From positions 27,152 to 91,151 of the forward strand of contig JAVCDA010000082.1 in the NCBI GenBank assembly GCA_030765145.1: a DNA stretch of 64,000 nucleotides. The letters are read 5' to 3'. Each line of letters opens with the position of its first letter. Within the stretch, counting starts at the first letter, position 1. The position numbers and the translations under genes were made by a program. Of this stretch, positions 45 to 54,373 are shown piece by piece. The notes under the pieces were generated by a model. That model was given only the letters and a program-made list of their open reading frames with translations, was not told where the DNA came from and ran no database searches. This stretch comes from Candidatus Saelkia tenebricola (GTDB lineage: Bacteria; Omnitrophota; Gorgyraeia; Kaelpiales; Kaelpiaceae).

Positions 45-263
45 TCAGTTCAAACTTCTAGTCAGTCTAATTTTTATTGTTAAAAGCTCCTCATAAACCT
101 GATCAAGCTTCTTAAGCACTTGCTCTTGTTTTAAAATAAGACCGTCTATTTTGTCTCCCAGAGTAAGCTTGCCAGCTGCTACTGCAGTACCGGTTAAATT
201 ATAGAAAACACCAATCATGAATATAACCGCTAATATGAACAATATAACTTTAAATTTTCTCAT
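45..263 (-). CDS. small hypothetical membrane protein (one TM helix plus a coiled-coil tail)
   Basis: 72-aa ORF with a hydrophobic N-terminus (ILFILAVIFMIGVF) followed by a charged helical tail; overlaps the GH57 stop by 14 nt; no recognisable family. Confidence 0.3.
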   Translation of the reverse strand: MRKFKVILFILAVIFMIGVFYNLTGTAVAAGKLTLGDKIDGLILKQEQVLKKLDQVYEELLTIKIRLTRSLN

Positions 264-13536: not shown

Positions 13537-14475
13537 TTAAAATTGCAATTTTAACATTCTTAATTGATTTAATGGATGCCTAAAAGAGAAATCTATTTCC
13601 CGCCAACAGGGCCTGATGCATCCTATACAACTACCGATTAATTCTTTTATTTCTTCGTTCTCATTACCTCTGAATTTATGACAGGGAGAAAAAGACCCTT
13701 CAGGCGAAATAGAAAAATAAAGCCTTCCTGCATAACAACGAGGATTCTTAAAAAAGCCTTTAAAGTAATCTTTAGAAGATTCTAAAAATCTATCACTATT
13801 AAATATCACCTTACGTTTCTTGGATAAAACTTCATAAATACTATCAATATCCCCATAATCTTTCTCTTGGAATTTAAACTCAGCTTCTGGATTTTCAATC
13901 GGTACCAATGAAACCATAAAATCATATCCCCTTGCAAATTCAACTATTTGGGGTAATTCTTTTAGATTTAACCGTGACACTACAACATTTAATAACTTAA
14001 TCCTGTTCTTAAAATACCGGCTAACCAATTCTATGGAATTTGAAACACTTTTTAAATAATCATTACCGGTTATAAAAGCATATTTTTCCTCATCAAGAGT
14101 GTCTAAAGATATAGATATTCCATCTAATCCGGCTTTATAGAACTCAACAATTAAATTTTCATTCAATAAAACTGCATTAGTAAGCAATCTTACTTTTATG
14201 CTTTCCTGCTCAAATATCTCTACAACCGTAACAATATCATCTCTCAACAAAGGCTCCCCCCCGCCTATACTGATGTATAAAATGCCCGAATCTGATAAAT
14301 TTTTTGCCATTTTCTTTATCTCGATCACAGAAAGCTCTTTTTCGAATTTATCCTCTGTAACTTTACACATTCGGCAAGCAAGATTACATCTGTGTGTAAT
14401 GCCATAATGGACATATACTGGTCTTGGTCTTCCTAAAACAAAAGATAAAAGACTATAAAATTGAGATATTTTCAT
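13537..14475 (-). CDS. radical SAM protein with a C-terminal SPASM-like Cys cluster
   Basis: CNLACRMC (Cx3Cx2C) near the N-terminus; C-terminal cysteines (SPCHKF...GSCIGCIRPC) resemble a SPASM/twitch auxiliary-cluster domain. Confidence 0.75.
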   Translation of the reverse strand: MKISQFYSLLSFVLGRPRPVYVHYGITHRCNLACRMCKVTEDKFEKELSVIEIKKMAKNLSDSGILYISIGGGEPLLRDDIVTVVEIFEQESIKVRLLTNAVLLNENLIVEFYKAGLDGISISLDTLDEEKYAFITGNDYLKSVSNSIELVSRYFKNRIKLLNVVVSRLNLKELPQIVEFARGYDFMVSLVPIENPEAEFKFQEKDYGDIDSIYEVLSKKRKVIFNSDRFLESSKDYFKGFFKNPRCYAGRLYFSISPEGSFSPCHKFRGNENEEIKELIGSCIGCIRPCWREIDFSFRHPLNQLRMLKLQF

Positions 14476-16049
14476 CTTTTAATACGCTTAAAAATTTTTA
14501 TCTTGCACAATCTATACGTTTCATAGTCCATTGTTATCTCTTTTATGAAAATAAATTCGCCTAACCTTTTTTTAAACTCATCCTGCAGTGCTAATAAATG
14601 CTCCTTTCGATAACCTGGAAAATCACTTTCAAAATCGCTCTCGATATAAAAAATAAAATCTGATTTGTCTATAATATCCGAGGGTAGCATTGCATTATCA
14701 ACTAAAGATAGCAAATCCTCGAATTGTACTCTGCTTGAGATTTTCTTCATTGCACATGCATATTTTATTACATCTATGATAAATGGATTAACGTCACATA
14801 AATTGTCTGGGACAACACCAATTTCTACAGCTTTATCCTTTTCTCTAACTATATTAATTATTTCATCAACATTTCTTATCTTCGACATAGGAAAGACTTT
14901 TCCAATAATAAAATAATTACTAACTGGATTCGACTTACTATGCTTTAATTCAACAAAAGAAACTATAGACAAACTACATGTGAGAATAAACAAAAATTTA
15001 ATGTTTACTTTTTCACCTACCTTGCCAATAGCATAGGTTATTAAAATAGCAACTCCGGGAAGCAAGGGAATAGTATGTTTTGGAAGTAATACTGCAGGGT
15101 GAAAAATCAAGATAAAAAAGGATATAACAACCCATAGAAAAATACATATTAATTCCTTCTTTTTAAACCTGATGATTTCCATAAACGCATAGAGAATACT
15201 TATCAAGCCAACCCAATAGTAGCAAGTGGAAATCTGTAAATATAGAACACCGTAATAAGGAATTAAAAATGTTTTAATCTCATAAATAAATTTAGAAAAT
15301 TGTGAACCTAAATTTTCCGATTGAACACAACGACTGAGATAACTAAAGAACAATTCCCGTGCTGGCTTATCAATCAAAACCGCTAAACACCATATTGCTG
15401 GAATAATAATCATTAACAAGCAAGCTATGAAAAAATTTCTATACGCCGGACTTGACCTTTTTATATTTAAAATATAAAAAAATACACCGGGTATTACAAA
15501 AAAGATAAAGTATGGATGAATTAAAAATCCGATTATATTTATTATTGCCCAAAATAAAGTATATTTTTTATCTTCAAAAAAACGCGAACTAATTAACAAA
15601 TAATGACTCAAAACAACAACTGCCGTTAAAGCAACGCTATGGTGACAAGCTCTTGAAAAACCTATTATTCCTGGAAAACCTAAAAGTATAATTACAGCAA
15701 TTAACCCGTATATCGGGGTTAATAATTTTCTACCCAAAAGATAGGTTGAAATAACAAGCATAATTACCCATAAAAAGTTAACCCCTGCCATTACATCCGT
15801 ATTTTCTCCAAAGAGAACGTAAAATGGAACTGGCAACAATCTTTGCAATGGCGGGATAACATTACTTCTGATTTTTTTAAAAAAATCAGAAGGGTCGCTT
15901 TTTAAAGCATGAAAATATTGGATACTGGCAGAGAAACTCCTATACTCATCATGAACAGGATAAAGCTCATCTTGTTTCAGAAAAATAAAGTGTAAAATCG
16001 CAATAACAACAATTAAAACTGCTAAGAAAATTACAGATTTCTTTTCCAA
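14472..16049 (-). CDS. polytopic membrane protein, GT-C fold-like (ArnT/PMT_2-like putative glycosyltransferase)
   Basis: At least 11 predicted TM helices; the first loop contains PVHDEYRS (DE motif in the position of the ArnT/PMT catalytic Asp-Glu); C-terminal soluble domain of about 150 aa. Confidence 0.5.
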   Translation of the reverse strand: MEKKSVIFLAVLIVVIAILHFIFLKQDELYPVHDEYRSFSASIQYFHALKSDPSDFFKKIRSNVIPPLQRLLPVPFYVLFGENTDVMAGVNFLWVIMLVISTYLLGRKLLTPIYGLIAVIILLGFPGIIGFSRACHHSVALTAVVVLSHYLLISSRFFEDKKYTLFWAIINIIGFLIHPYFIFFVIPGVFFYILNIKRSSPAYRNFFIACLLMIIIPAIWCLAVLIDKPARELFFSYLSRCVQSENLGSQFSKFIYEIKTFLIPYYGVLYLQISTCYYWVGLISILYAFMEIIRFKKKELICIFLWVVISFFILIFHPAVLLPKHTIPLLPGVAILITYAIGKVGEKVNIKFLFILTCSLSIVSFVELKHSKSNPVSNYFIIGKVFPMSKIRNVDEIINIVREKDKAVEIGVVPDNLCDVNPFIIDVIKYACAMKKISSRVQFEDLLSLVDNAMLPSDIIDKSDFIFYIESDFESDFPGYRKEHLLALQDEFKKRLGEFIFIKEITMDYETYRLCKIKIFKRIKR

Positions 16050-22249: not shown

Positions 22250-24076
22250 ATGCAAACCACGAAATCTATTTATCAATGTATACTTATTGCAACCTTGTAC
22301 ATATTATTAATTATTTCGTTCTGTCTGCCTTTTAGATTATTGTTTCCACCCAATATTTTAGGAACCCATATTGATTTAGATGCGTTATGCTGGGATCAAT
22401 GGTTTACCAAAAAATGTATCACCGAATTGAATTTTTCCCAACTTTGGCATACCGACTTTATCGCTTATCCTCATGGTACAAATTTATTTCTTGATCACGG
22501 ACCTCCGTTTTGGGAATGCATATCAATCCCCTTCCAGCTCATCTTACCTTTTCCTAGTAGCCATACGTTTTTAGTCATTTTTATCTTGCTTCTTAACGCC
22601 TTTTCATTCTTCATTCTTGCCAAATATCTCTATAAACATATTCCGCTTGCCTTTCTTGCTGGAATACTGGGAAGCATTAATCCTTATACCATATATCACA
22701 TAAACGCCGGCCGCCCACAACAAATAGCTATATTCTGGGCCCCTTTATTTATGTTGTATCTCCTTAAAACTAAACAACAACCAAACATAAAAAACACTAT
22801 TATTACATCTGTCATATTAATTCTAACAGCTCTTTCTTACTGGTATTATAGCATGTTTCTGATTATATTTATGATCCTTTTCCTCTTCTATTCTTACTTT
22901 CTGCATGCTACTAAAAGAGAGAAATTAATTCTTACTAAAAACATTTGTTTAGTACTGTTCTTTTTTGGTCTTAGCATACTGCTTTTATTTGGTTATCCTG
23001 TTATCGTAAAAGGCCTTTATCCTCAAGGCTATAGCGCTATTAGACCTTTCCCATCTTTTCAAGAAATCGTCTCTAAAAATACTTCTGTCTGTTTTTCGCA
23101 TATGCTCTTATGCACATCATTCGGTGCTTATTATCCTTTGCTATTAATATTAATTATCAACATTATCTCCTTCCTAAATTTAAAATTTTTCAAAAAAAAT
23201 ATACTCTGGATTACTGCTGCTGACCTTTTTTACATCCTATCTCTTGGCCCTTATGTAGGCATTTTTAATAAAATCATCCCTTCCCCACTCTTTATGGCAT
23301 GCTATTATCTGCCTACTTTCTCTCGTTTCTGGTGGCCAATCAATTACTTTATCCTCAGTACAACCTGTTCTATTGTTATTATTATATCTTTTATTTATGA
23401 CTTGTCTCATTACAAAAGATTGAGAACAATAGTATCTATCTTTCTCTCATTTAGCTACCTTGTATTATTTTATAACATCCAATACAACTCGCCCCCCTCT
23501 TTGCAACCTCTCCCTCCAAGCAAACATCCAAAATTCAATTTTTCAAGCTTAAAAATACCGCAACTAAGAATTGGATTTCGCTTCTCACGATTAAGAGTAC
23601 CGCATCCGGTATATATTTATCTTAAAGACCAAGAAAACGGTGCAGTTATTGAACTACCGTTTGAATTGGAAAAAGTTCTCTTTCTTAATAACCAAAGAAC
23701 TCACAAAAAAAATACTTTTAACCACCCTGGATATGGACATGATGAAGAAAGTCTTCTCTGGCCAGAAGAACAGATACAACTACTTAAAAATAACCTCTTC
23801 TTACGTTATGTTGATGAAGTATGCAAACATTATTCCCGCACAACAGCCAAAAAAATAACCCCGAGACAATACACTCCTCAAGGGATAAAAAAAGCACTTG
23901 AGGAATTACATAACCTGGGATTTAATTATATTGTCGTCAATCCCGCATATACCTCCCGTTATTTTGAAGAAAATAGCCTACTTGAAAATTTAGTTAAATT
24001 TCTTCCCGCTCCCTTTAAAGAGTATCCTGATAACCTGAAGTTATACCGTATTGATAATCTAATTGAAGTTAATTAA
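22250..24076 (+). CDS. polytopic membrane protein with C-terminal soluble domain (putative GT-C-like glycosyltransferase), tandem paralog 1
   Basis: About 13 TM helices; N-terminal loop motif CWDQWF...FIAYPHG shared with four other paralogs in the window; C-terminal domain of about 180 aa; 14-nt overlap with the next gene. Confidence 0.55.
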   Translation: MQTTKSIYQCILIATLYILLIISFCLPFRLLFPPNILGTHIDLDALCWDQWFTKKCITELNFSQLWHTDFIAYPHGTNLFLDHGPPFWECISIPFQLILPFPSSHTFLVIFILLLNAFSFFILAKYLYKHIPLAFLAGILGSINPYTIYHINAGRPQQIAIFWAPLFMLYLLKTKQQPNIKNTIITSVILILTALSYWYYSMFLIIFMILFLFYSYFLHATKREKLILTKNICLVLFFFGLSILLLFGYPVIVKGLYPQGYSAIRPFPSFQEIVSKNTSVCFSHMLLCTSFGAYYPLLLILIINIISFLNLKFFKKNILWITAADLFYILSLGPYVGIFNKIIPSPLFMACYYLPTFSRFWWPINYFILSTTCSIVIIISFIYDLSHYKRLRTIVSIFLSFSYLVLFYNIQYNSPPSLQPLPPSKHPKFNFSSLKIPQLRIGFRFSRLRVPHPVYIYLKDQENGAVIELPFELEKVLFLNNQRTHKKNTFNHPGYGHDEESLLWPEEQIQLLKNNLFLRYVDEVCKHYSRTTAKKITPRQYTPQGIKKALEELHNLGFNYIVVNPAYTSRYFEENSLLENLVKFLPAPFKEYPDNLKLYRIDNLIEVN

Positions 24077-25865
24077 AACTAATGTACAAAAAATTGCTCG
24101 ATATATCCTTATCATTGTTTTATACTTAGCATTTATTACTTCGTTCTGCCTACCATTTAAATTATTATCCTATCCCCATATTCTAGGGATAGGGATGGAA
24201 AATCCTGATTTAAGCGGGTCGTATTGGATTCAATGGTTTATCAAAAAATGTATTACTGAATTAAATTTTTCCCAACTTTGGCATACCGACTTTGTTGCTT
24301 ATCCTCATGGCATGGATCTGCTCTCTGATTTCGGACCTCCGTTTTGGGAATGCATATCAATCCCCTTCCAGCTCATCTTACCTTTTCCAACCAGCTATAC
24401 AGTTTTAGTTTTGTTTATCTTGTTTCTTAATGCCTTCTTATTTTTCCTTTTTGCTAAGTTTCTTTATAAAAACACTTCACTTGCCTTCCTTGCTGGAATA
24501 TTGGGAAGCATCAATCCTTATACAATACACCACGTAAATGCTGGTCGCCTACAGCAAATGGCTATATTCTGGATCCCTTTATTTATGTTGTATCTCCTTA
24601 AAACTAAACAACAACCAAACATAAAAAACACTATTATTACATCTATACTATTAATTCTAACAACTCTTTCTTACTGGTATTATGGCATGTTTCTAATTAT
24701 ATTTATGTTCCTTTTCCTCTTCTATTCTTACTTTCTGCATGCTACTAAAAGAGAAAAACTGATTCTTACTAAAAACATTTGTTTAGTACTTTTCTTTTTT
24801 GGTCTTAGCATACTGCTTTTATTTGGTTATCCTGTTATCGTAAAAGGCCTTTATCCTCGAGGCTATAGCGCTATTAGACCTTTCCCATCTTTTCAAGAGA
24901 TCGTTTCTAAAAATACTCCTAACTATTTTTCTTTTATGATTAGTGGAACATCCTTGAAAAGACTTGTCAATTCTTCATTAATAATAGCAATAACTAATCT
25001 CCTTTTTCTGTTTAACATAAAATCTCTTAAAAAAAATCTTCTCTGGATTATCAGTGCAAATATTTTCTATCTCCTGTCCCTTGGTCCCTATTTAAATATT
25101 TTTGGTACAATTGTTCCTTCTTTTACTTTCATCTTTTTTTATTATCTTCCCACATTTTTACGTTTATGGTGGCCTATTAATTACTTCTCCATGAGTATCA
25201 GCTGCTCTATTATCATTCTGATATCGTTCATCAATGGATTAACTTATCACAAACGGATAAAAACAATTCTTTCCTCTTTCATATCGCTCGTATTCATTTT
25301 GTTGACTTATGGTAATCAGCATGAATTCTTACCTTCTTCAACGCTTTCTTTTGAAAATTTACGATTCCGTTTCTCGCAAATAAAAGAACCTCATTCGGCA
25401 TATTGTTATCTTAAAAACCAAGAAGCTACTGCAATAATTGAATTGCCGCTTAATTGGGGCTCCACATTATTCCTTGATAATCAGATGGTCCATCAGAAAA
25501 GAACTTTTAATTTCCCTGGATATGGATTCGGCGAAGAGATATTTATTTGGCCAGAAAAACAAGTGCAATTACTTAAAGAGAATCTCTTTTTGCGTTATGT
25601 TGATGAGGCATGCAAACATTATTCTCACACTCCAGTCAAAAAAGTAATCTCGCAACAATACACTCCTCAAGGGATAAAAAAAGCACTCGAGGAATTACAT
25701 AACCTGGGATTTAATTATATTGTCGTCAATCCCGAATATACCTTCCGTTATCTTGGAAAAGAAAACCTGCTTATAGATTTAATTAGATTTTTCCCTGTTC
25801 CTTTTAAAGAGTATTACGATGGTCTAAAATTATATCGTATTGACAATCTAATCGAAGACAGTTAA
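24063..25865 (+). CDS. polytopic membrane protein with C-terminal soluble domain (putative GT-C-like glycosyltransferase), tandem paralog 2
   Basis: Long, nearly identical N-terminal and C-terminal stretches shared with the upstream paralog (overall about 60-70%), with a divergent middle segment. Confidence 0.55.
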   Translation: MKLIKTNVQKIARYILIIVLYLAFITSFCLPFKLLSYPHILGIGMENPDLSGSYWIQWFIKKCITELNFSQLWHTDFVAYPHGMDLLSDFGPPFWECISIPFQLILPFPTSYTVLVLFILFLNAFLFFLFAKFLYKNTSLAFLAGILGSINPYTIHHVNAGRLQQMAIFWIPLFMLYLLKTKQQPNIKNTIITSILLILTTLSYWYYGMFLIIFMFLFLFYSYFLHATKREKLILTKNICLVLFFFGLSILLLFGYPVIVKGLYPRGYSAIRPFPSFQEIVSKNTPNYFSFMISGTSLKRLVNSSLIIAITNLLFLFNIKSLKKNLLWIISANIFYLLSLGPYLNIFGTIVPSFTFIFFYYLPTFLRLWWPINYFSMSISCSIIILISFINGLTYHKRIKTILSSFISLVFILLTYGNQHEFLPSSTLSFENLRFRFSQIKEPHSAYCYLKNQEATAIIELPLNWGSTLFLDNQMVHQKRTFNFPGYGFGEEIFIWPEKQVQLLKENLFLRYVDEACKHYSHTPVKKVISQQYTPQGIKKALEELHNLGFNYIVVNPEYTFRYLGKENLLIDLIRFFPVPFKEYYDGLKLYRIDNLIEDS

Positions 25866-38930: not shown

Positions 38931-40775
38931 TTAAAAATCCTTAAATGTATACACTACCTCTTTATCCGATACCCAATATGGTTTTCCCATATGTTGTTGT
39001 AAAAAATAAATCAACAATGCTCCGGATTGCTTGGACAGTAAATCTTTATACACCACTAAATGTGTAAAAGAATGCTTTTTTAAATCTTCAATTTCATGAA
39101 TAATTTTTATATAAGCTTCTGTCCCTTCAGTAGTTATGTTTTCATACTCATCAGTCATAAATATTTCTGCTGCTAAAGTTTCCTCTATTCCTGCATTAAA
39201 ACCGCTATCCTTGATTAAATCTAACCGACTAAATTTATCAAGATAATTGATAAATAAATTATTTTTTAATGAAGGAGAAATGCCCTCAAATGCATCCAAA
39301 CTATAGATAACCTTTTTTTTATGATATGTTTGATAATAGAGACCTGGACGCAATAAGCGATAAATAAAATGGTTAATTGGAATTTCAATAATTGCTGCCC
39401 CAGGCTGATTTTTTAAGTCTATAACAAAATCCGGAACTGTAATAATGCAACGCCTAAAAGGATACGGCACAGGAGCAATTAGAAGATACTCCAATACAGT
39501 AGCTGTGACTATAAATAGAGCCAATATCGGCTTATGCCTTATTTTAATCTTTTTTAAGACATTAGCCAATCCAATACCCGCAAGTATAAATAAACTTAAA
39601 TACATCAATATGCTAAAACGGAAAGGCAAAGAAACATACGAAGAAAGAGGCAAAATATGATCTATTATGGAATAGGGCAGCATTTTTAAAAACAACATAT
39701 TCTTTATTTCTAAACCATTTATGCGAGGATACGGACCTAACGACAAGAGAAAGAAAAACACTGCGCAGATTGCCCAAAAAATTCTAATTGGATTCCCATG
39801 CCTACTAATTAATCCTATAATAGCTAATATTAAAACAATCCACCCTATATAAGTACTATGGACAAAATAGCCATCCTGTGATTCCGGGAGAACCAAAGAG
39901 TTGTATTCTGAACTTCTATCTTCACTCCTTTCTCGAAATTGATTAATTTTAAAACAGCCATTTAAATCTGTAAAATTTATATTTTTAAGAGCCCATTTAA
40001 CAGATTTTTCGTTTTTTATACCTACAACCTTTTTTTCATTTGTAACCGATTTAAAAAATACCCAATAAAATGGTGTACATAATGCTACGGCTATTATTGA
40101 AATAAATGCAATTCTCTTTAGAATAGCTTTCTTGTTCCCAATATCATTTTGGATAACTGCATTGTAAATCAGAAAAAAAATAGTAAATATTCCCAAAGAA
40201 AAACCTATATACCAAGAAGAAACCGTTGCTAAAAATAAAAATAAAATTCCCGATAAAATTACACCTAAATTGTTTTTTTCTTTTGCTCTAAATAATGATA
40301 GAACGTAATACGGCACCCAGCATACCCCTAAAAATTCATCCGTACCGTTATGAATAGTGCTAATAATAACCGGTGAAATAGAATAGCAAAGCCCTGCATA
40401 GAAAGCAGCGCTTTTGCTTTTCACTATATACCCCGCTAATTTATACATACCTAATGCTGCAATTAACATTAGCGCCATTATCATAAGATTATAAGAAACC
40501 GGTAATGGCAAAAATAAATAAAGCGGTAAAATCAAGATTGCGTTAATTAAGTTTATAGGATAAAAATACCCTCCCTGAGGATAAAAAATATTATCAGTAA
40601 AAAAAAGAGCGGTTCCATTTAAAATGCTATCTTTAACAAAACATATCCCCCATAAAGCATTCCAGGTATCTGTATATTGAGACCCTAAAACTGTTTTATT
40701 TAACCCTACAATAGTCGGAAATGTTATCGCTAAAATTAAAATAACATACAATAACAATACTAAACTTGTGGTCAT
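38931..40775 (-). CDS. polytopic membrane protein, paralog of the 22250/24063/43767/45605 family (putative GT-C-like)
   Basis: N-terminal motif TDTWNALW...NIFYPQGG matches the family signature; at least 12 TM helices and a C-terminal soluble domain. The ORF-track start at 40862 overlaps the upstream gene by 53 nt, so the in-frame Met at 40775 (MTTSLVLLL) is preferred. Confidence 0.5.
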   Translation of the reverse strand: MTTSLVLLLYVILILAITFPTIVGLNKTVLGSQYTDTWNALWGICFVKDSILNGTALFFTDNIFYPQGGYFYPINLINAILILPLYLFLPLPVSYNLMIMALMLIAALGMYKLAGYIVKSKSAAFYAGLCYSISPVIISTIHNGTDEFLGVCWVPYYVLSLFRAKEKNNLGVILSGILFLFLATVSSWYIGFSLGIFTIFFLIYNAVIQNDIGNKKAILKRIAFISIIAVALCTPFYWVFFKSVTNEKKVVGIKNEKSVKWALKNINFTDLNGCFKINQFRERSEDRSSEYNSLVLPESQDGYFVHSTYIGWIVLILAIIGLISRHGNPIRIFWAICAVFFFLLSLGPYPRINGLEIKNMLFLKMLPYSIIDHILPLSSYVSLPFRFSILMYLSLFILAGIGLANVLKKIKIRHKPILALFIVTATVLEYLLIAPVPYPFRRCIITVPDFVIDLKNQPGAAIIEIPINHFIYRLLRPGLYYQTYHKKKVIYSLDAFEGISPSLKNNLFINYLDKFSRLDLIKDSGFNAGIEETLAAEIFMTDEYENITTEGTEAYIKIIHEIEDLKKHSFTHLVVYKDLLSKQSGALLIYFLQQHMGKPYWVSDKEVVYTFKDF

Positions 40776-40809
40776 ACTAAACCAGGATTTTTCTTTTGTA
40801 ATCGAACTT

Positions 40810-42342
40810 TTACATTTTTTCATAGAAAAATACTTTTGCCCCTTTAAATTTTTTCGATTCAATAATTTTAAAGTATTTATCTATCTGCTTTAAAAGCATA
40901 CGATCTTGAGGACTTTCTTCTACTATTTCAAATTCAAAAGAAGAAAGAATCAACCAAAAATTTTTTTTATCTTTTAATGCATAGTAGCCCGGTTTGTCAT
41001 GGTATCTTTCATAGCTATCAACTTCCGAAAATATTATCCTATCTGTTTCTTGAAAAGACGCCGCTAAGCAAACATTATTTTCTTTTAACCGGGCAATTTC
41101 CCCCTTTGACCTATTTGCATAGTATATGAAAGGATAAATCGTATTACGGCATGTGTGATATACAGCATCCCCTTCTTCATAATTTTTACCAATATACCGT
41201 ACTATTCCCCGGTGATCTTTCTTCCTCTGAATCCAAACATGCTCTTTATCAGAATAAGGAAGAATATTATTATAATAATTAACTAACGTTATTGTTGATA
41301 AAAAAGCTATACAAAACATACTTAAAACCAGCTTTTTATTGTTCAAACCAGACAAACCAGAAGCCACAATTAAATAATAGAACAATGCACTGGAAATAAA
41401 ATATCTATCTACATACATCGACTTAAACTTGGATGTTATAAAAATAGCCCCGACAGGCAAAATTAAACAAAGTAAGCTAAGTATCAAAGATTTATCTTTT
41501 TTAAACTTCATAACACCTTGGATGAAGAAAAAAACAAATATAGCAACAGTACACAAAGAAACCAAATACACAGCGTGATAACCTATGCTAAAAGTCTTAA
41601 GGGTTAAAAATAAAGATTTTAAAGAAACTGCCGGCGCCCAAAAATATTTATACGTAGATGTGGATTTTTTTATATTTTCTAATGCATTGTAACTTAATAC
41701 TAACCAGGGAGAAGATAGTAAAAAAATTAAAATATTGCCTATAAAACATCTTTTTTTTATTTTTTTACTTAATTTTCTAAAAATTACGGAAATAAAAATT
41801 ATTTCGGCTATCCAAAAAAATACTCCTATATAATGAGTATACATATTAAGCAAAGTAATTATTACAAAACCTATCCAGAAACCATTTGTTTCATTTTTTA
41901 AAGATCTGATAAAAAGATATGCAGAAGATAAAGTAAGCAATGTAATTAAAGAATACATCCTTGCTTCTTGAGAATAATAAATCTGAAATGGAGAAATCGC
42001 TAATAAAAAAGCGCCAATTAATCCTACTTTATCTGTGAAAAGCGCTTTTCCTACAAGAAATATCATTAAAATAGAGATCGAACCAAAAATTGCCGAAGGA
42101 AATCTTAAGCCAAATTCAGAATCAGTAATTTGCATCCAAAATTTCATAAACAAACCATATAAAGGAGGAGTAAAATCTTTTGGTGATATCTGCTCTGCAT
42201 CTTGAACCTGTATAACAGAAAGGGCTTCGTCATACCAAAGACTATAATTACTTAAATTATAGAACCTTAGACTTAATCCTAATAATACAATTAAAACCAG
42301 TAGAGACATAATTGATTTTCTTTTATAAAAAATTACACCCAT
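40810..42342 (-). CDS. glycosyltransferase family 39/83-like protein (ArnT / PMT_2-type GT-C mannosyl/aminoarabinosyl transferase family)
   Basis: N-terminus LLVLIVLLGLSLRFYNLSNYSLWYDEALS has the YxxxLWxDEA signature of ArnT/PMT GT-C enzymes; about 11 TM helices; C-terminal soluble domain. Confidence 0.7.
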   Translation of the reverse strand: MGVIFYKRKSIMSLLVLIVLLGLSLRFYNLSNYSLWYDEALSVIQVQDAEQISPKDFTPPLYGLFMKFWMQITDSEFGLRFPSAIFGSISILMIFLVGKALFTDKVGLIGAFLLAISPFQIYYSQEARMYSLITLLTLSSAYLFIRSLKNETNGFWIGFVIITLLNMYTHYIGVFFWIAEIIFISVIFRKLSKKIKKRCFIGNILIFLLSSPWLVLSYNALENIKKSTSTYKYFWAPAVSLKSLFLTLKTFSIGYHAVYLVSLCTVAIFVFFFIQGVMKFKKDKSLILSLLCLILPVGAIFITSKFKSMYVDRYFISSALFYYLIVASGLSGLNNKKLVLSMFCIAFLSTITLVNYYNNILPYSDKEHVWIQRKKDHRGIVRYIGKNYEEGDAVYHTCRNTIYPFIYYANRSKGEIARLKENNVCLAASFQETDRIIFSEVDSYERYHDKPGYYALKDKKNFWLILSSFEFEIVEESPQDRMLLKQIDKYFKIIESKKFKGAKVFFYEKM

Positions 42343-42405: not shown

Positions 42406-43770
42406 CTAAACATATTCAGATATACTTTTAGCAGATTCTATGCCCATTTTGATAGCTTCATCCATATTAGCATATTTGAATTGCCCTTGACGACCAGTTG
42501 AAGACAAATTCTCTATACGCTGTAAAACATCTCCTGCTTCAGATAAAATTTGTTTATAATTTAAGGAATATATAGGATAGGCATTCTCTATACTACTACT
42601 AAAACAATCAATTATTTCTTTCTCACTTATATTTAATCCAATTTTTTTTAATCCTTTTAAAGATGATTTCAATATTACACTATCTTCTGCAGACCAAATT
42701 TCATCCCCCTTACTACAGGAAATCTCTAAAGATATCGAGGCATATCCTGTAGGCGTATTATTAGGGTGCCAATTTTTGGGTTCTTGAAGTCGGAAAAAAA
42801 TTATTTCTTTGCTGGGAATATATATCCAAGTGTAATCAGTTACTTTCTCTCTTCTTAGCATGAGATTTAATATTTTTACAGACCTATATTTTAATACCTC
42901 ATCAACTTTTAAAGAATCTATACCTAAAGGAGGATTTAAAACCTTTATTAACTTATTAATCGGAATGGTAGAAATAATATATTTTGGACAGAAAATAATC
43001 TTATTATTACCTTGAAGACAATCTATTTTCAACACCTTTAGCTTATCATGATGAATGGCCAGAATATTTGTATCAAAAATAAATTCTGCCCCTTTTTTTT
43101 CTGCAATATTTTTAAACTCCTCGGCTATTTGTCCAATACCACCCTGCTGAGGGTAATAAAAATCATCATATAAGCTTTTAGAAGAGGTTAATCTTTTGAA
43201 AAAAACATTAAGAATTATCTGTTTATAGTCTAAATTAGGAATTCTTTCAACCGCCCAATCAGATGACATCATAGAAGGAGATATTCCCCATAATTTTTCG
43301 TTGTATTGTTTAAAAAAACTTTGATATAAATAAAATCCAAATTTACTAATTAAATATTGTTCCAAATTTATATCCTTTTCTCTCCCTACTAACCTGCTGG
43401 TCATTTCATACATTAATGACTTAAAAATACCTATTTTATCTGTCAATCGCAGATTAAAATTTAAATCATGCATGTTTAAAGGATACCCAAAGTATCTTTC
43501 CTTCCAATAAACCATACTTTTGCGTGGACGTTTTACTAAATCTTCTCCCATTATTTTTTTTACTAACTGTAATATTTCCACATGTTTTGTTAAAAATCTA
43601 TGTCCCCCTAGATCAAATAAAAACCCGTCTTTATGTAATGTCCTACACATACCTCCTGCATTTGGTTCTTTCTCTAACACGATAACTTTAACGCCTTTTT
43701 GTGTTAAATAATGTGCTGCAGCAAGACCGGATATGCCCGCCCCTATTATTAAAACATCGGTCTTAATCAT
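42406..43770 (-). CDS. FAD-dependent oxidoreductase (UGM / amine-oxidase-like), paralog 3
   Basis: VLIIGAGISGLAAAHYLTQKGVKVIVLEKEPNAGGM; GGHRFL; VYWKERYFGYPL motifs. Confidence 0.7.
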   Translation of the reverse strand: MIKTDVLIIGAGISGLAAAHYLTQKGVKVIVLEKEPNAGGMCRTLHKDGFLFDLGGHRFLTKHVEILQLVKKIMGEDLVKRPRKSMVYWKERYFGYPLNMHDLNFNLRLTDKIGIFKSLMYEMTSRLVGREKDINLEQYLISKFGFYLYQSFFKQYNEKLWGISPSMMSSDWAVERIPNLDYKQIILNVFFKRLTSSKSLYDDFYYPQQGGIGQIAEEFKNIAEKKGAEFIFDTNILAIHHDKLKVLKIDCLQGNNKIIFCPKYIISTIPINKLIKVLNPPLGIDSLKVDEVLKYRSVKILNLMLRREKVTDYTWIYIPSKEIIFFRLQEPKNWHPNNTPTGYASISLEISCSKGDEIWSAEDSVILKSSLKGLKKIGLNISEKEIIDCFSSSIENAYPIYSLNYKQILSEAGDVLQRIENLSSTGRQGQFKYANMDEAIKMGIESAKSISEYV

Positions 43771-45608
43771 ATGTTGTGTATTTCATAAATAATAATTTCA
43801 TCATTAGTGGAACAATCCTCCTCAGGATTTACTAAAATCTGATTAAGTATTAATCTAATCTCATCATAGTTTTCTTCGCTCGGCAAATCTTTTTTGTGTA
43901 CTAGAATGTACTTGTAATTATATTTCATAAGTATATTTATACTTTGCTGTAATTTTTGATTATCTATAACGCAGTTAGAAACAGAAATCTTCTCGTTGCT
44001 TAAATCCTCGAGTATATTCAGCAAATAATTATTTTCTATATCAGGGGGATAATTTCGAGAGACAATATGTGCCGGGACATGACCATTTAACCTTTTTTTA
44101 TTATGTATTACCTGATAATAACTATATTTATAACTTTTTTGTGGCAATCTATCTAATATATTCGAATTTCTTGTAAAGGGGACTTCAATAATAGCAAAAT
44201 CAGCACAATTCTGGGCAAATTTTAAATAAACTTCAGGCACAACTATAGGATTATGCGGTAATACAAAATGAAACTGCGTTGAAAAAATAAACAATAAAAA
44301 CACAATAACAGTAAACAATACCTTCTGTCTTTGCTGTAACTTATATTTATTAAAAATTACATCCATTCCATGCCCCGATAGCATGGCCAGACTTAGGATA
44401 GAAATTATACAAAATCTCAAGGGAAATTGAACCCTTCCCAATCCTGGAATAAAACGCGAACACACCGTATAAGGCATTATGTTGATCGTTTTTACTAATA
44501 AACGCTCACCTATTATCAAGCAAGGACCAAAAGCTAAAGACGTAAAAAATAAAAAACAGAAAATGTAGAACAAAACCTGTCTGTTTTTAAACCTCAATAA
44601 CGCTATTCCTGATAAAAAAAATGGAATAATCCAAAGCTTAAAGTAAAAAGGCCTATGCCAATCCACTTTTGAATCATGTATAAGGCTTTTAGCATCAAGT
44701 GAAGATTCAAATTTAATCTGGAACCAGGCTCCATAATAGTTTTCTTTTACATTGGAATATAGTGCTTCCAACATAACATTTTCATTATTAATTTCTGAAA
44801 TATTGTTTAAAAATTTTCTATCTATTTCTGATATTTGTTCCTCCTGAGAGCTATAATCTATACTTCTATATACTAAAAAAAGAAAGCTTCCGATTATTAA
44901 AACCCATAAAATTACTTTAGGAATAAAAATAGATGGCTTATTTAAAACACCCTTATAGTCCAAATTAAATACAAAATACACGATTGTAAAAAGTAATAAT
45001 ATGTAGCCAACATACCAGCACCATGCCGCTGTCATAATAAACCAGAAACAGGAAAGCAGGGTATATTTTACTGTCTTTGATTCAAACATTTTGCATAAAT
45101 AAAGTATATATAAAAACCCCCATCCTAAATTAACAAACTCTAAAAACCCATGTTTTATATGAAAATTAATAAGGGGATTAAATGCTAGCATGTACCCGGT
45201 AAAAAAACCTATCAATTTACTCTTGAATAAATAACTGGTTAATAAATATCCTCCCAAACAACTAAAAAGTAGTGAAAATAAAATTGTAAGATTATATGTA
45301 ATGTTATGATTATTAAATACAATCTGGATAGGAATTGTAAAATACGACAGTAGAAAACCACTATTGCCATTCCATATATCGATACCATCCGGATAGCAAA
45401 TATATTCGGTAAAATAGAACCCTTTGTGCAAATCTATTAAAGATTTCTTTGCCCACCAAAAATCCCAGTAGTGAATGTATTTATCCACAACATTTAACCC
45501 AATACCCTCTTTGTCAAAATAGAAAGTCAAAGGAACAGTTGCAGTTGCAATTAAAATAAGGGTTATATAAGCAAAAACTATTACTATACTTGTGAATTTG
45601 GCTTTCAT
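43767..45608 (-). CDS. polytopic membrane protein, paralog family (putative GT-C-like)
   Basis: N-terminal motif HYWDFWW...ICYPDGIDIW; multi-TM; C-terminal soluble domain; 4-nt overlaps with both neighbours. Confidence 0.5.
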   Translation of the reverse strand: MKAKFTSIVIVFAYITLILIATATVPLTFYFDKEGIGLNVVDKYIHYWDFWWAKKSLIDLHKGFYFTEYICYPDGIDIWNGNSGFLLSYFTIPIQIVFNNHNITYNLTILFSLLFSCLGGYLLTSYLFKSKLIGFFTGYMLAFNPLINFHIKHGFLEFVNLGWGFLYILYLCKMFESKTVKYTLLSCFWFIMTAAWCWYVGYILLLFTIVYFVFNLDYKGVLNKPSIFIPKVILWVLIIGSFLFLVYRSIDYSSQEEQISEIDRKFLNNISEINNENVMLEALYSNVKENYYGAWFQIKFESSLDAKSLIHDSKVDWHRPFYFKLWIIPFFLSGIALLRFKNRQVLFYIFCFLFFTSLAFGPCLIIGERLLVKTINIMPYTVCSRFIPGLGRVQFPLRFCIISILSLAMLSGHGMDVIFNKYKLQQRQKVLFTVIVFLLFIFSTQFHFVLPHNPIVVPEVYLKFAQNCADFAIIEVPFTRNSNILDRLPQKSYKYSYYQVIHNKKRLNGHVPAHIVSRNYPPDIENNYLLNILEDLSNEKISVSNCVIDNQKLQQSINILMKYNYKYILVHKKDLPSEENYDEIRLILNQILVNPEEDCSTNDEIIIYEIHNI

Positions 45609-47299
45609 TTTAACTTATACATGCTTATTCGTTCATCGGAGTTATCTATTAAAATACAGCTTTCTAACAACAACCGTTCAAGCGCTTTTTTTGTACCTTC
45701 GTTTAAAAACTCATTATGAAGTAAAAGATAGAGAAATCCGTCTTTTTTAAGCTCAGAGCAAGATTGAACTAAAATTTCGATTTCGGATTTAGACATATAT
45801 ATAACGTTACCTAGATTGAACAAAATTAAATTTAAAAAAGGATTTTCTTCTATGTAATCCCAATGCTTTATATTTTTGGCACTGGGAGAAAGATAACTTA
45901 CCGCATAAGGAATAGATTTCTCATGTAATGTTTGGTAATACATATACTTGCCACAAAGTAGATGATTGTAAAGATCAAAAGGAATATCAATAATTGCATA
46001 ATCATTTTTATCTTTGGCCAATTCCTGATAAATGGCTGGTATCTGCATATCGGTTACTGGTAAAGGATACGGCCCGGGAGATACCAATAAAACCTCAGCA
46101 ATTATTGTTATTGCAGTGATTGAAACTAATAATTTATTACGCCTATCTCTATTTATTATTTCCACAAGAAAGAGCATTCCATAACCTGATATTACAGCAA
46201 TAATCAATAAGCATACAGCAAATGCACGATATGTGTTGATAACAGGTAAAAATTTACTGGGCAAATAAAAATTATAAAAAACATGCTCAAATAATGAAAG
46301 ACGACAACCCAATGTTAAAATCAAAAAAAATATCCCTAAAAAACACCATTTTACTACCTCTTTTCTATGCCTTGAAACAACTGCAAGCAAAGATAACGAT
46401 AAACAACTGAATCCAATGTAAGTAGATTTCATAAAATGCCTTACTGTTGAATCAAAAACTAATTTCCCGGGCGTAAAAAAATCTTTTATATCTACTATAA
46501 AATCAAGCTGACTTTTATAAATATCTATGGAGGTTTTAAAAAAAATGAACCGCGTAATAAGAACATACGCCATAGGGGCAATAAAAATTGCATATAAAAC
46601 TAATACCCAAAAACAAGATAATAACGTTTTTTTATAACAGACAAATTTAGCTCTCATAACAATAATTATAAAAATATAAAGCAGAGTAAAGAATAAAAGA
46701 TAAAGCCCGTAATACCAACAAGATAACGTGGTAAATAACAACAACAACCCCGACATAAAAATATATCTTCTACGGTTTGTATTTATTAATTTTAAAAACA
46801 TAAGGATGTACAGGGGTAAAAACACCAAGTTAATGGTTTCCAAAGCCCCATTATAAATTTGTCCAAACACATATGCATTTATTCCATATATTATTCCGGA
46901 TATAAAACTTGCATATCCATTATGTGTTAAATATTTTGCGAGAAAAAACATGGCAACACAATTTAAAAAAATTAGCATCATAACCAAAAAATTATAACTA
47001 GTAGTAATGTTGAATAGAAAAGTAAACGGAATTGCTAAAAAATCCGTAAACAGAATCGGGATATGACGATGAACATTAACTCCGGCAGGATAAAAAATTT
47101 TATCTGTATAAAAATCTGCTTTTAAAATTTGATTAAAAGCTGTCTGATCCCACCATATATGCCAACAACTGACCCAAACATCATTAAACTTATCTCCCAA
47201 CACATGAGTCGATATGTCAGGAAACAGAAAATAAAATATTCCTATCACAATTAATAAAAATAAAACCACCGCAATCCAATTGCTATTTATTTTCATCAT
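45605..47299 (-). CDS. polytopic membrane protein, paralog family (putative GT-C-like)
   Basis: N-terminal motif DVWVSCWHIWWDQ...IFYPAGVNVH; multi-TM; 564 aa. Confidence 0.5.
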   Translation of the reverse strand: MMKINSNWIAVVLFLLIVIGIFYFLFPDISTHVLGDKFNDVWVSCWHIWWDQTAFNQILKADFYTDKIFYPAGVNVHRHIPILFTDFLAIPFTFLFNITTSYNFLVMMLIFLNCVAMFFLAKYLTHNGYASFISGIIYGINAYVFGQIYNGALETINLVFLPLYILMFLKLINTNRRRYIFMSGLLLLFTTLSCWYYGLYLLFFTLLYIFIIIVMRAKFVCYKKTLLSCFWVLVLYAIFIAPMAYVLITRFIFFKTSIDIYKSQLDFIVDIKDFFTPGKLVFDSTVRHFMKSTYIGFSCLSLSLLAVVSRHRKEVVKWCFLGIFFLILTLGCRLSLFEHVFYNFYLPSKFLPVINTYRAFAVCLLIIAVISGYGMLFLVEIINRDRRNKLLVSITAITIIAEVLLVSPGPYPLPVTDMQIPAIYQELAKDKNDYAIIDIPFDLYNHLLCGKYMYYQTLHEKSIPYAVSYLSPSAKNIKHWDYIEENPFLNLILFNLGNVIYMSKSEIEILVQSCSELKKDGFLYLLLHNEFLNEGTKKALERLLLESCILIDNSDERISMYKLK

Positions 47300-54331: not shown

Positions 54332-54373
54332 TATAACGTGCAGAGTTTATTAATAAAAGTTATAATGCTAACT

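What the first reader, a model, noticed from the sequence alone, without database searches (positions are those of the whole stretch)
22250..25865. Tandem membrane-protein paralogs with mosaic DNA identity, members of a 5-gene family with a 'DxWxxW...YPxG' signature
The two plus-strand genes are a tandem duplication. Long stretches are about 90-100% identical at the DNA level: the N-terminal loop and TM1-6, and the C-terminal soluble domain, for example the shared block ggacctccgttttgggaatgcatatcaatccccttccagctcatcttaccttttcc. The central TM segments and the linker are strongly diverged. This pattern fits gene conversion or domain shuffling, with diversifying change concentrated in one region.

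Three further paralogs share the N-terminal signature, giving a family of five:
- 38931: TDTWNALW...FYPQGG;
- 43767: HYWDFWW...CYPDG;
- 45605: CWHIWWDQ...FYPAGV.

The architecture (about 12-13 TM helices plus a C-terminal periplasmic domain) is GT-C-like, but I could not assign the family.
Basis: seen in the sequence. Interest (0 to 1): 0.65.

Follow-up and report, generated by a model that had tools for sequence, protein, structure and literature searches.

The report
Tandem GT-C glycosyltransferase paralogs, gene-converted
Two neighbouring genes in an uncultured Antarctic-lake bacterium encode membrane sugar-transferases of a large but unnamed family; recombination has kept their catalytic halves almost identical while the halves predicted to bind the acceptor stay very different, an interesting but ordinary kind of gene-family evolution.

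Summary
Genes A (22250-24076, +) and B (24063-25865, +) are tandem paralogs, 66% identical in protein and 75% in DNA. Their identity is sharply mosaic. Four blocks are 93-100% identical, including the quoted 56-nt block, which occurs exactly twice. The remaining stretches are 60-72% identical.

The mosaic also holds at silent sites: pS is 0.00-0.15 in the blocks and 0.7-0.9 in the centre, and 0 of 300 shuffles matched this. That indicates gene conversion between old paralogs, not uneven protein constraint. I found no sign of diversifying selection or of faster evolution in either copy.

The three further paralogs (C, D, E) are real.

An AlphaFold model of A (pLDDT 83.6, pTM 0.87) matches only GT-C enzymes in the PDB: STT3/OST, DPY19, PglB, AftA and ArnT. 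A nearly invariant Asp sits at the start of the first helix of the first outer loop, where GT-C_A enzymes have their catalytic base.

The converted blocks cover the conserved 7-TM module. The diverged block covers the variable module and half of the C-terminal domain.

The family is not rare: about 30,000 representative clusters. It has no curated model, and only C passes Pfam DUF2079.

In Omnitrophota, family members sit in a conserved cluster rich in radical-SAM genes, next to LPS genes.

Verdict: new members of a known kind; moderate interest.

The parts
22250..24076 (+). Gene A: 608-aa GT-C-fold membrane protein (NCBI tag P9M06_07530, 'hypothetical protein', Candidatus Saelkia tenebricola)
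   Evidence: ORF. Exact match to P0001. AF2 model pLDDT 83.6, pTM 0.87. Foldseek hits to STT3, DPY19, PglB, AftA and ArnT.
24063..25865 (+). Gene B: 600-aa tandem paralog of A. It starts at TTG 24063 and overlaps A by 14 nt. NCBI calls it from Met45 (556 aa), which would remove TM1.
   Evidence: The N-terminal 44 residues align with TM1 of A, including the shared SFCLPF.
22373..22375 (+). Codon for Asp42 of A, the putative catalytic base at the start of the first helix (42-58) of the first extracytoplasmic loop. The equivalent in B is Asp49, codon 24207-24209.
   Evidence: The column is at least 90% conserved in the 19- and 46-sequence alignments and invariant in the 12-sequence A-type alignment. 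Helix position. Codons checked.
22394..22477 (+). Conversion tract 1 (92.6% identical to B 24228-24311). Lies in the helix region of the first outer loop.
22496..22555 (+). Conversion tract 2 (57 nt, 100% identical to B 24330-24389).
22646..23083 (+). Conversion tract 3 (438 nt, 93.4% identical to B 24480-24917; the inner part is 96-99%). Covers TM3-TM7 and the loop after TM7, i.e. most of the GT-C conserved module.
   Evidence: pS is 0.00-0.22 in this tract.
23084..23863 (+). Old, unconverted segment (62.9% nt identity to B 24918-25655; silent sites mostly saturated, pS 0.5-0.9). Covers the variable module (four TM helices and an outer loop with a beta-hairpin), the linker (B lacks 16 codons, in two gaps) and the first half of the C-terminal domain.
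23864..23962 (+). Conversion tract 4 (96.9% identical to B 25653-25751), inside the C-terminal alpha/beta domain.
   Evidence: pS is 0.05.
38931..40862 (-). Paralog C (longest ORF 643 aa; the likely start is Met at 40823 or 40775). The only member that passes a Pfam threshold (DUF2079).
43767..45608 (-). Paralog D (613 aa).
45605..47299 (-). Paralog E (564 aa). It lies immediately upstream of D with a 4-nt overlap, forming a second and much older tandem pair (23% identity).
40810..42342 (-). Separate GT-C gene of the PMT_2 type, directly upstream of C. Not a member of the five-gene family.
   Evidence: Pfam PMT_2, 59 bits. Only a marginal profile similarity to the family. A second PMT_2 gene lies at 14472-16049.

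Best explanation
A and B are tandem paralogs of an uncurated family of GT-C_A-fold integral-membrane glycosyltransferases.

Inferred mechanism. Each enzyme has an 11-helix membrane domain. On the periplasmic face it takes a sugar from a polyprenyl-phosphate-linked donor and transfers it to an envelope glycan. The Asp at the start of the first outer-loop helix (A Asp42, B Asp49) acts as the catalytic base. A small C-terminal alpha/beta domain sits on the periplasmic side.

Evolution. The duplication is old: silent sites are saturated wherever the copies have not been homogenised, and the protein divergence there is nearly as deep as that to the closest ortholog in another organism. Since then, several non-reciprocal recombination events (gene conversion) between the adjacent copies have overwritten four tracts. 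Those tracts cover most of the conserved 7-TM catalytic and donor-side module and one piece of the C-terminal domain.

Functional reading. The variable module (TM8-11, its outer loop and the linker) has stayed unconverted. In solved GT-C_A enzymes this module makes most of the acceptor-specific contacts. The likeliest reading is therefore that the two enzymes share chemistry and donor but act on different acceptor positions or linkages, and that conversion in the variable module is removed by selection.

Family and setting. C, D and E are far more distant members of the same family (20-30% identity). Together with two PMT_2-type GT-C genes, they belong to a roughly 37-kb cluster rich in radical-SAM genes, next to lipid A and LPS-core genes. 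The cluster probably builds or decorates an outer-membrane glycoconjugate.

Shown: the paralogy, the silent-site mosaic, the GT-C fold, the conserved Asp and the conserved gene neighbourhood.
Inferred: the donor type, the periplasmic acceptor, and the same-donor/different-acceptor division of labour.
For: Mosaic at silent sites.
- Sliding Nei-Gojobori pS is 0.00-0.22 in codons 151-285 and 0.05-0.18 in codons 527-586. It is mostly 0.66-0.91 across codons 286-526, dipping to about 0.5 around codons 435-481.
- Permutation tests: 0 of 300 shuffles reached the observed values.
- The quoted block is confirmed.

Concerted evolution against an outgroup.
- In the high-identity blocks A-B is 92%, against 57% and 55% to P0003.
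- In the low-identity regions A-B is 54%, against 49% and 46% to P0003.
- A and B are equally distant from nine further relatives.

Synteny. The ortholog loci of P0003 (L005/L006) carry a single copy followed by a GNAT-like gene on the opposite strand, in the position that an unannotated 198-aa minus-strand ORF occupies in the window. The other A-type loci examined, L001/L002, L004, L020 and L007, each carry one A-type copy.

Fold.
- AF2 model of A: pLDDT 83.6, pTM 0.87.
- All 18 Foldseek PDB hits with E <= 1e-3 are GT-C enzymes (STT3, DPY19, PglB; TM 0.39-0.50 over more than 600 columns). AftA and ArnT follow.
- The model has TM1, a long outer loop whose first helix begins at Asp42, six more TM helices up to residue 247, then four TM helices and a C-terminal domain.
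- This matches the published definition of GT-C_A: a 7-TM conserved module, the catalytic base in the first helix of lumenal loop 1, and a variable module that makes the acceptor contacts (PMC13503287).

Conservation. Asp42 is at least 90% conserved in the alignments and invariant in that. B keeps every column that is invariant in the A-type subfamily. Overall dN/dS is about 0.28, so both copies are under purifying selection.

Pfam. C passes DUF2079 (34.5 bits against a cut-off of 28.2) and weakly hits GT-C_AftD. Apart from one TgpA_N hit, relatives hit only PTPS_related, PMT_2, STT3, DUF2079, DUF6541 and PMT.

Context.
- Family members in other Omnitrophota-type contigs sit in the same kind of cluster: B12-radical-SAM genes, a SPASM radical-SAM gene, DegT, PMT_2 and U32. 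An ABC-2 type exporter is present in L001/L002 and L004, Glycos_transf_4 in L004, and GT9 in L020.
- In the window the cluster is flanked by GT4, GT9, LpxL-like, LpxK and WaaA genes.
Against: - No biochemical evidence exists for any member of the family. Every database name found is 'hypothetical protein'.
- A, B, D and E pass no Pfam or NCBIfam model, and a profile search of PDB sequences found nothing. The GT-C assignment therefore rests on a predicted structure plus weak profile links.
- No donor-making enzyme (GtrB/ArnC-type GT2 or UbiA-type synthase) and no donor flippase was recognised in the 64-kb window.
- The TM-scores are moderate (0.4-0.5).
- The pair is known from a single metagenome-assembled contig. 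No independent assembly was found.
- Selection against conversion in the variable module is an inference. Low sequence identity alone could also block conversion there once the copies had diverged.
- The C-terminal domain has no recognisable structural relative, so its role is unknown.
Confidence: 0.72

Rival explanations
1. There was no gene conversion. The mosaic only reflects stronger purifying selection on the catalytic module than on the variable module since a single duplication.
For: The high-identity blocks coincide with the module that is most conserved across the whole family.
Against: Constraint on the protein does not protect synonymous sites. pS falls to 0.00-0.15 in the blocks and is 0.7-0.9 in the centre. 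A run of 36 identical synonymous codons and exact identities of 57-70 nt were never reached in 300 shuffles. In the same blocks A and B are only 55-57% identical to P0003, so the blocks are not unusually constrained between organisms.
Confidence: 0.04
2. The duplication was recent, which explains the near-identical blocks. Recombination then replaced the central part and the ends of one copy with a segment from a foreign homolog (a xenologous segment swap), rather than old paralogs being homogenised.
For: This would also give a silent-site mosaic. In the diverged regions A, B and P0003 form almost a trichotomy (54/49/46% identity). B's diverged parts could therefore come from a lineage about as distant as P0003's.
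Against: There are four separate high-identity blocks of different ages (100%, 97%, 93% and 93%), separated by short diverged stretches, one of only 21 nt. That fits repeated short conversions better than one replacement. No closer donor for B's central region appears among the 50%-identity representatives: the best relatives are 29-38% identical there to both A and B. A and B are still each other's closest relatives in the diverged regions (bootstrap 0.90-0.93).
Confidence: 0.12
3. The proteins have a GT-C fold but are not sugar-adding enzymes acting on a glycan. They could be oligosaccharyltransferases that glycosylate proteins (like STT3/PglB), or non-catalytic or otherwise different membrane proteins.
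For: The best structural matches are STT3 and PglB. One relative of the 46 scanned hits Pfam STT3. GT-C-fold proteins without transferase activity exist (general knowledge).
Against: A-E do not hit the STT3 model. The WWDYG-type motif of the STT3/PglB periplasmic domain is absent from the translations. The C-terminal domain is a small alpha/beta domain with no match to the STT3/PglB domain. A conserved acidic residue at the catalytic position argues for catalysis. The surrounding genes are for sugar and LPS biosynthesis, not for protein glycosylation.
Confidence: 0.1
4. Assembly artefact: two strain variants of one gene were joined in tandem, or chimeric reads created the identical blocks.
For: The source is a metagenome-assembled genome. 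Only one contig carries these exact proteins, and no second assembly was found.
Against: The two genes are 34% different in protein and differ by indels. They join through a clean 14-nt stop/start overlap in different frames inside a 97.7-kb contig. The identical runs are at most 70 nt, shorter than typical reads. Strain variants would not be saturated at silent sites. Arrays of several copies of this family are common in unrelated genomes.
Confidence: 0.03

Closest known systems
GT-C_A glycosyltransferases with solved structures: STT3/PglB (GT66), DPY19 (GT98), ArnT (GT83), AftA and EmbA-C, ALG3/9/12
   Same: Predicted fold and topology agree: a 7-TM conserved module, a long first outer loop whose first helix starts with a conserved Asp, then a variable module of four TM helices and a C-terminal extracytoplasmic domain, as described for ALG9/ALG12 (PMC13503287).
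   Different: There is no significant sequence similarity to any PDB chain and no hit to their Pfam models for A, B, D or E. The WWDYG motif is absent. The C-terminal domain has no structural relative. TM-scores are only 0.4-0.5.
Pfam DUF2079 (PF09852) and PTPS_related (PF10131), uncharacterised families; I recall them as members of Pfam's GT-C clan, which was not checked here
   Same: C passes the DUF2079 gathering score. Five of 46 relatives weakly hit PTPS_related and one hits DUF2079.
   Different: The DUF2079 match covers only about 150 residues of the 459-position model. A, B, D and E and most relatives match neither family. NCBIfam has no model for them. The family therefore lies between curated families.
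embC-embA-embB, the tandem GT-C arabinosyltransferase paralogs of mycobacteria (general knowledge)
   Same: Adjacent GT-C paralogs in a cell-envelope glycan locus, each presumed to make a different linkage from a lipid-linked donor. Several GT-C enzymes work in one pathway.
   Different: The Emb proteins are about 1,100 aa with large carbohydrate-binding C-terminal domains. They show no detectable sequence relationship here and only weak fold hits (E 0.3-4). I know of no comparable conversion mosaic reported for them, and I did not check.
Periplasmic post-polymerisation glycosylation by GT-C enzymes: Gtr systems and the GT136 three-component pentofuranose systems (Kelly et al. 2024, PMC11127046)
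   Same: The concept is the same: a GT-C enzyme with a C-terminal periplasmic substrate-binding domain decorates a glycan exported by an ABC transporter. Related loci here carry ABC-2 exporter genes, and one carries a Glycos_transf_4 initiating enzyme.
   Different: The partner genes that define those systems (a polyprenyl-phosphate sugar synthase and a GtrA- or MATE-type flippase) were not found in the window. In GT136 the C-terminal domain is a CBM, whereas here it is a small alpha/beta domain.
Interlocus gene conversion between tandem bacterial paralogs (a well-known process; general knowledge)
   Same: Short tracts of near identity at silent sites lie within otherwise old paralogs, and the tracts disagree phylogenetically with the rest of the gene.
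   Different: Nothing unusual in mechanism. The specific point here is that the tract boundaries follow the module structure of the GT-C fold.

Membership tests
GT-C_A fold glycosyltransferases | Polytopic membrane protein with an N-terminal conserved module of seven TM helices followed by a variable C-terminal module | tested here: met
   The AF2 model (pLDDT 83.6) has TM helices at 2-23, 103-128, 131-153, 163-176, 180-196, 198-219 and 222-247. Four more TM helices (295-413) and a soluble domain follow. All Foldseek PDB hits with E <= 1e-3 are GT-C enzymes. The definition is from PMC13503287.
GT-C_A fold glycosyltransferases | Catalytic acidic residue in the first alpha-helix of the first extracytoplasmic loop | tested here: met
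   Asp42 begins helix 42-58 directly after TM1. The column is invariant in the 12-sequence A-type alignment and at least 90% conserved in the 19- and 46-sequence alignments. B has it as Asp49. Its catalytic role was not tested.
GT-C_A fold glycosyltransferases | Uses a polyprenyl-phosphate(-diphosphate)-linked sugar donor on the extracytoplasmic face | not testable with these tools
   No donor synthase or flippase was recognised in the window. Biochemistry is needed.
Pfam DUF2079 (PF09852) | Whole-protein score at or above the gathering threshold (28.2 bits) | tested here: inconclusive
   C scores 34.5 bits, above threshold, but over only model positions 51-196 of 459. A, B, D and E give no hit at E <= 1.
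STT3/PglB oligosaccharyltransferases (GT66) | Match to the STT3 model, and a WWDYG motif in the C-terminal periplasmic domain | tested here: not met
   A-E do not hit STT3. No WWDYG is visible in the translations. The C-terminal domain does not match the STT3/PglB domains.
PMT_2 / ArnT-type (GT39/GT83) | Match to Pfam PMT_2 or PMT at the gathering threshold | tested here: not met
   A-E give no hit. The two neighbouring genes, 40810-42342 and 14472-16049, do hit. The profile of the five-gene family against the first of them gives only a marginal local match.
Mycobacterial arabinofuranosyltransferases (Emb/Aft) | Match to the Arabinose_trans or GT-C_AftD models | tested here: not met
   Only C hits GT-C_AftD, at 20.9 bits, below the 26-bit cut-off. 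The structural hit to AftA has E about 1e-3 and the Emb hits have E 0.3-4.
Gene conversion between paralogs | Significant clustering of identity at synonymous sites along the alignment | tested here: met
   No shuffle of 300 reached the observed run length or the observed chi-square.
Gene conversion between paralogs | Segments disagree on relationships or divergence relative to an outgroup | tested here: met
   In the high-identity blocks A-B is 92% against 55-57% to P0003. In the low-identity regions the values are 54% against 46-49%.

The most novel reading that the evidence does not exclude
The five genes belong to a very large GT-C family (about 30,000 clusters at 50% identity) that nobody has characterised or curated. 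In Omnitrophota the family is tied to a conserved cluster of roughly 37 kb. In this window the cluster carries at least seven B12-radical-SAM genes and at least four other radical-SAM genes. It also carries three FAD oxidoreductases, a U32-family enzyme, a sugar aminotransferase, an asparagine synthase and two PMT_2 enzymes. The cluster may make an unknown, heavily radical-modified envelope glycoconjugate or glycolipid. The A/B pair would then be a natural experiment: conversion preserves a shared catalytic and donor module, while selection keeps two acceptor-specificity modules apart. That would point directly to the specificity determinants of a new GT family.
Probability: 0.3. Interest if true: 0.6.

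Novelty: new member of a known kind. Interest (0 to 1): 0.38.

Why it matters
GT-C enzymes build and decorate cell-envelope glycans: LPS modifications, arabinan, and protein glycosylation.

This work assigns a fold and a probable catalytic residue to a very large family that databases list only as hypothetical proteins.

It also gives a testable hypothesis about which part sets acceptor specificity. The conversion mosaic marks residues 279-538 as the part in which the two enzymes are kept different.

Finally, it flags a conserved cluster in the uncultured phylum Omnitrophota, rich in radical-SAM genes and lying next to LPS genes, whose product is unknown.

The evolutionary process itself, gene conversion between tandem paralogs, is well known.

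Tried and rejected
- Pfam and NCBIfam scans of A-E found nothing for A, B, D or E. Chance-level hits such as hemP and Coa3_cc were ignored.
- An NCBIfam scan of 46 relatives found nothing.
- A profile search of PDB sequences found nothing meaningful.
- The C-terminal domain was modelled alone (pLDDT 86.4) and searched against the PDB. There was no significant match (best E 0.2, TM below 0.3). It is therefore not identified as a CBM or an STT3-like domain.
- Independent assemblies of the pair were sought with an exact 45-nt junction pattern and with protein B in the metagenome contigs. None was found.
- A homolog search with B's diverged centre returned nothing, not even B itself, so it is uninformative.
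The scan with the A-type alignment found only 12 loci, because it works from exact patterns.
- A crude hydropathy count of TM helices was unreliable, so the model's helices were used instead.
- Promoter and terminator scans around the pair gave nothing above chance.
- The 629-aa ORF at 50857-52746 was tested as a possible sixth member. It is not related.
- Look-ups of the contig ends beyond the window failed.
- Literature searches found no description of this family or cluster.
- NCBIfam gave no above-threshold names for the cluster's radical-SAM, FAD or U32 enzymes.

Full report
**Source.** The exact protein of gene A is NCBI 'hypothetical protein P9M06_07530' of the metagenome-assembled genome Candidatus Saelkia tenebricola, on a 97.7-kb contig. 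Gene B is P9M06_07535. The organism is an Omnitrophota bacterium described from Ace Lake, Antarctica (PMC8542988). That paper does not discuss this locus.

**The observation.**
- The ORFs 22250-24076 (+, 608 aa) and 24063-25865 (+, 600 aa) are the only plus-strand genes in a long run of minus-strand genes.
- They align end to end at 66% amino-acid identity and 75.4% nucleotide identity.
- A two-state segmentation of the codon alignment gives four high-identity blocks, in A coordinates: 22394-22477 (92.6%), 22496-22555 (100%), 22646-23083 (93.4%, the inner part 96-99%) and 23864-23962 (96.9%).
- Between and around these blocks, identity is 43-73%. The long central stretch 23084-23866 is 62.9% identical, and there B lacks 16 codons, in two gaps, in the linker.
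- The description needs small corrections. TM1 and the extreme N-terminus are diverged, and only about a fifth of the C-terminal domain is near-identical.

**Is the mosaic more than uneven protein constraint?** Yes.
- Sliding Nei-Gojobori estimates show synonymous differences of pS 0.00-0.22 in codons 151-285 and 0.05-0.18 in codons 527-586.
- Across codons 286-526, pS is mostly 0.66-0.91, which is saturated. It dips to about 0.5 around codons 435-481.
- Among 389 codon pairs that encode the same degenerate amino acid, the longest run of identical codons is 36. The best segment contrast has a chi-square of 48, against a maximum of 22 in shuffles. Neither value was reached in 300 shuffles.
- Exact identities of 57, 70, 67 and 46 nt occur.
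- Protein-level selection cannot hold silent sites identical, so the blocks are recent copies of one gene onto the other: gene conversion.

**Comparison with an outgroup.**
- The closest homolog from another organism is P0003, 52% identical to A. In its two contigs it is a single-copy gene followed by a GNAT-like gene on the opposite strand. An unannotated 198-aa minus-strand ORF occupies that position in the window.
- In the high-identity blocks A-B is 92% identical, while A-P0003 and B-P0003 are 57% and 55%.
- In the low-identity regions the three values are 54%, 49% and 46%. This is almost a trichotomy, with A and B weakly closest (bootstrap 0.90-0.93).
- The duplication is therefore old, nearly as old as the split from P0003's lineage. 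The blocks show concerted evolution.
- In the diverged centre, A and B are equally distant (29-38% identity) from nine further relatives, so neither copy has evolved faster.
- With dS saturated and dN at 0.2-0.6 there, nothing indicates positive or diversifying selection.
- Overall dN/dS is about 0.28. B keeps every residue that is invariant in the A-type subfamily. Both genes look functional.
- NCBI starts B at Met45, which would delete TM1. The upstream 44 codons align with A's TM1, so the TTG at 24063 is the better start.

**The family.**
- blastp and tblastn confirm that 38931-40862, 43767-45608 and 45605-47299 (all minus strand) are homologs of A and B over most of their length (75-138 bits). 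The window holds no sixth copy.
- The shared N-terminal signature is D-x5-W-x2-[WFC] followed about 20 residues later by [YF]-P-x-G.
- D and E form a second, much older tandem pair with a 4-nt overlap.
- The word-indexed homolog search found only 8-9 relatives per query.
- A profile of 19 sequences, searched exhaustively, found 30,384 representative clusters at E <= 1e-3 and 5,533 at E <= 1e-30, mostly matching end to end. The family is large and widespread, not rare.
- All source names seen are 'hypothetical protein'.
- Arrays of two to three or more copies occur in unrelated genomes, for example Myxococcota MAGs.

**What the proteins are.**
- Pfam and NCBIfam give nothing for A, B, D or E. 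C passes DUF2079 (34.5 bits against a cut-off of 28.2, partial coverage) and weakly hits GT-C_AftD.
- Of 46 relatives, a few hit PTPS_related, PMT_2, STT3, DUF2079, DUF6541 and PMT, and one hits TgpA_N. None hits an NCBIfam model.
- No PDB sequence is similar.
- An AlphaFold2 model of A built on the 19-sequence alignment is confident (pLDDT 83.6, pTM 0.87).
- In a Foldseek search of the PDB, the 18 matches with E <= 1e-3 are all GT-C enzymes: STT3 of yeast and human OST (E down to 4e-8, TM 0.42-0.50 over more than 600 columns), DPY19 and PglB. AftA and ArnT follow. Transporters appear only at E > 1.
- The model has TM1 (2-23), then a long outer loop whose first helix (42-58) begins with the nearly invariant Asp42. 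Six more TM helices run to residue 247 and a low-confidence loop covers 248-279. Four further TM helices (295-413) enclose an outer loop with a beta-hairpin. A linker and a 165-residue alpha/beta domain complete the protein.
- This is the GT-C_A architecture as defined in the literature: a conserved 7-TM module, the catalytic base in the first helix of lumenal loop 1, and a variable module. In ALG9 and ALG12 the variable module is four TM helices plus a lumenal C-terminal domain, and it makes most acceptor-specific contacts (PMC13503287).
- The C-terminal domain modelled alone (pLDDT 86.4) has no significant structural relative. Its conserved E-x-P and Q-x2-H-x-K motifs remain unexplained.

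**How the mosaic maps onto the fold.**
- Tracts 1 and 2 lie in the helices of the first outer loop.
- Tract 3 (codons 133-278) covers TM3-TM7 and the following loop.
- The unconverted stretch (codons 279-538) covers the whole variable module, the linker and the first half of the C-terminal domain.
- Tract 4 lies inside the C-terminal domain.
- The best-supported reading is that A and B share catalytic chemistry and probably the donor but differ in acceptor recognition. Conversion is tolerated in the shared module and is either selected against, or mechanically blocked by low identity, in the specificity module.
- This division of labour is an inference, not shown.

**Context.**
- The five genes lie in a block of about 37 kb (roughly 13537-50736) that is almost entirely on the minus strand.
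- B12-binding radical-SAM genes start at 16031, 17448, 26474, 27901, 36120 and 47338.
- Other radical-SAM genes start at 13537, 31237, 32553 and 48897.
- Three FAD oxidoreductases with weak UDP-galactopyranose-mutase-like matches start at 18866, 34778 and 42406.
- The block also holds an asparagine synthase (20205), a DegT-type sugar aminotransferase (33553), a U32-family protein (30204) and two PMT_2 GT-C genes (14472 and 40810).
- None of these enzymes reaches an NCBIfam cut-off.
- To the right lie GT4 and GT9 glycosyltransferases, an LpxL-like acyltransferase, LpxK and WaaA.
- The same gene set surrounds A-type relatives in other contigs (L001/L002, L004, L020) and a C-type relative (L019). 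An ABC-2 exporter is present in L001/L002 and L004, a Glycos_transf_4 initiating enzyme in L004, and a GT9 gene in L020.
- One C-type relative (L003) sits in an unrelated context.
- This supports a role in making or decorating an outer-membrane glycoconjugate. It resembles periplasmic post-polymerisation glycosylation by GT-C enzymes (PMC11127046) and the multi-GT-C logic of mycobacterial arabinan.
- No donor synthase or flippase was recognised in the window.

**Caveats.**
- The pair is known from one MAG contig, and no independent assembly was found.
- An artefact is unlikely, given the clean 14-nt overlap, the indels, the saturated silent sites and identical runs of at most 70 nt.
- A foreign segment swap remains a minor alternative to repeated conversion. 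The last homolog search, meant to test it, returned nothing at all, not even B itself, and is uninformative.

**Verdict.** These are new, uncurated members of a known kind of enzyme, shaped by a well-known evolutionary process. The added value is the fold and catalytic-residue assignment for a large family of hypothetical proteins, a specific hypothesis about the specificity module, and the conserved radical-SAM-rich cluster of unknown product.

Noticed in passing
window 13537-50736 (also L001/L002, L004, L019, L020): A conserved cluster of about 37 kb with at least six B12-binding radical-SAM genes and four other radical-SAM genes. One of those has an HMPTM zinc ribbon and sub-threshold similarity to TrsS and Tes. 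The cluster also holds three FAD oxidoreductases, a U32-family protein, a DegT aminotransferase, AsnB and seven GT-C genes. The same gene set recurs in other metagenomic contigs, some with an ABC-2 exporter and one with Glycos_transf_4. The product is unknown, and no NCBIfam model passes its cut-off.
   Followed up: partly
window 24063-24197: NCBI annotates gene B from Met45 (556 aa). The 44 upstream codons, starting from a TTG that overlaps gene A by 14 nt, align with TM1 of A. The deposited start probably truncates the protein.
   Followed up: partly
window 43767-47299 (-): Paralogs E and D form a second tandem pair with a 4-nt overlap but only about 23% identity. This is an ancient duplication with no sign of conversion.
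   Followed up: partly
window 54290-62870: Lipid A and LPS-core genes lie directly beside the cluster: GT4, GT9, a fused GT4+GT9 protein of 712 aa, an LpxL-like acyltransferase fused to an ELM1-like domain (643 aa), LpxK and WaaA. A XerC/D-type integrase gene follows at 62845-63717.
   Followed up: no
window 23567-24073 (A residues 440-608) and equivalents in B-E: The C-terminal periplasmic alpha/beta domain carries family-wide conserved motifs: (A/G)-I-I-E-x-P and Q-x2-H-x-K. It is modelled confidently but has no significant structural match in the PDB.
   Followed up: yes
window 50857-52746 (+): A 629-aa ORF at the edge of the cluster has no Pfam hit and no relationship to the GT-C family (hhalign probability 0.2%).
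   Followed up: partly
L007 (contig CAZDCH010000064.1, 7.6 kb): An A-type homolog (38-40% identity) and a second, divergent family member lie on a contig binned as an 'uncultured Thermoplasmatales archaeon'. This is either mis-binning or transfer across domains.
   Followed up: no
window 250-1863, 10972-13377: A GH57 branching enzyme and a GH94 (cellobiose/chitobiose phosphorylase-type) gene lie to the left of the cluster. This fits the sugar-fermenting, glycogen-making lifestyle described for this MAG.
   Followed up: no
tool behaviour: The word-indexed homolog search with the 246-aa central fragment of B returned no hit, not even the full-length B protein (P0002) that an earlier search had returned. 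Negative results from that tool with TM-rich fragments should not be trusted.
   Followed up: partly
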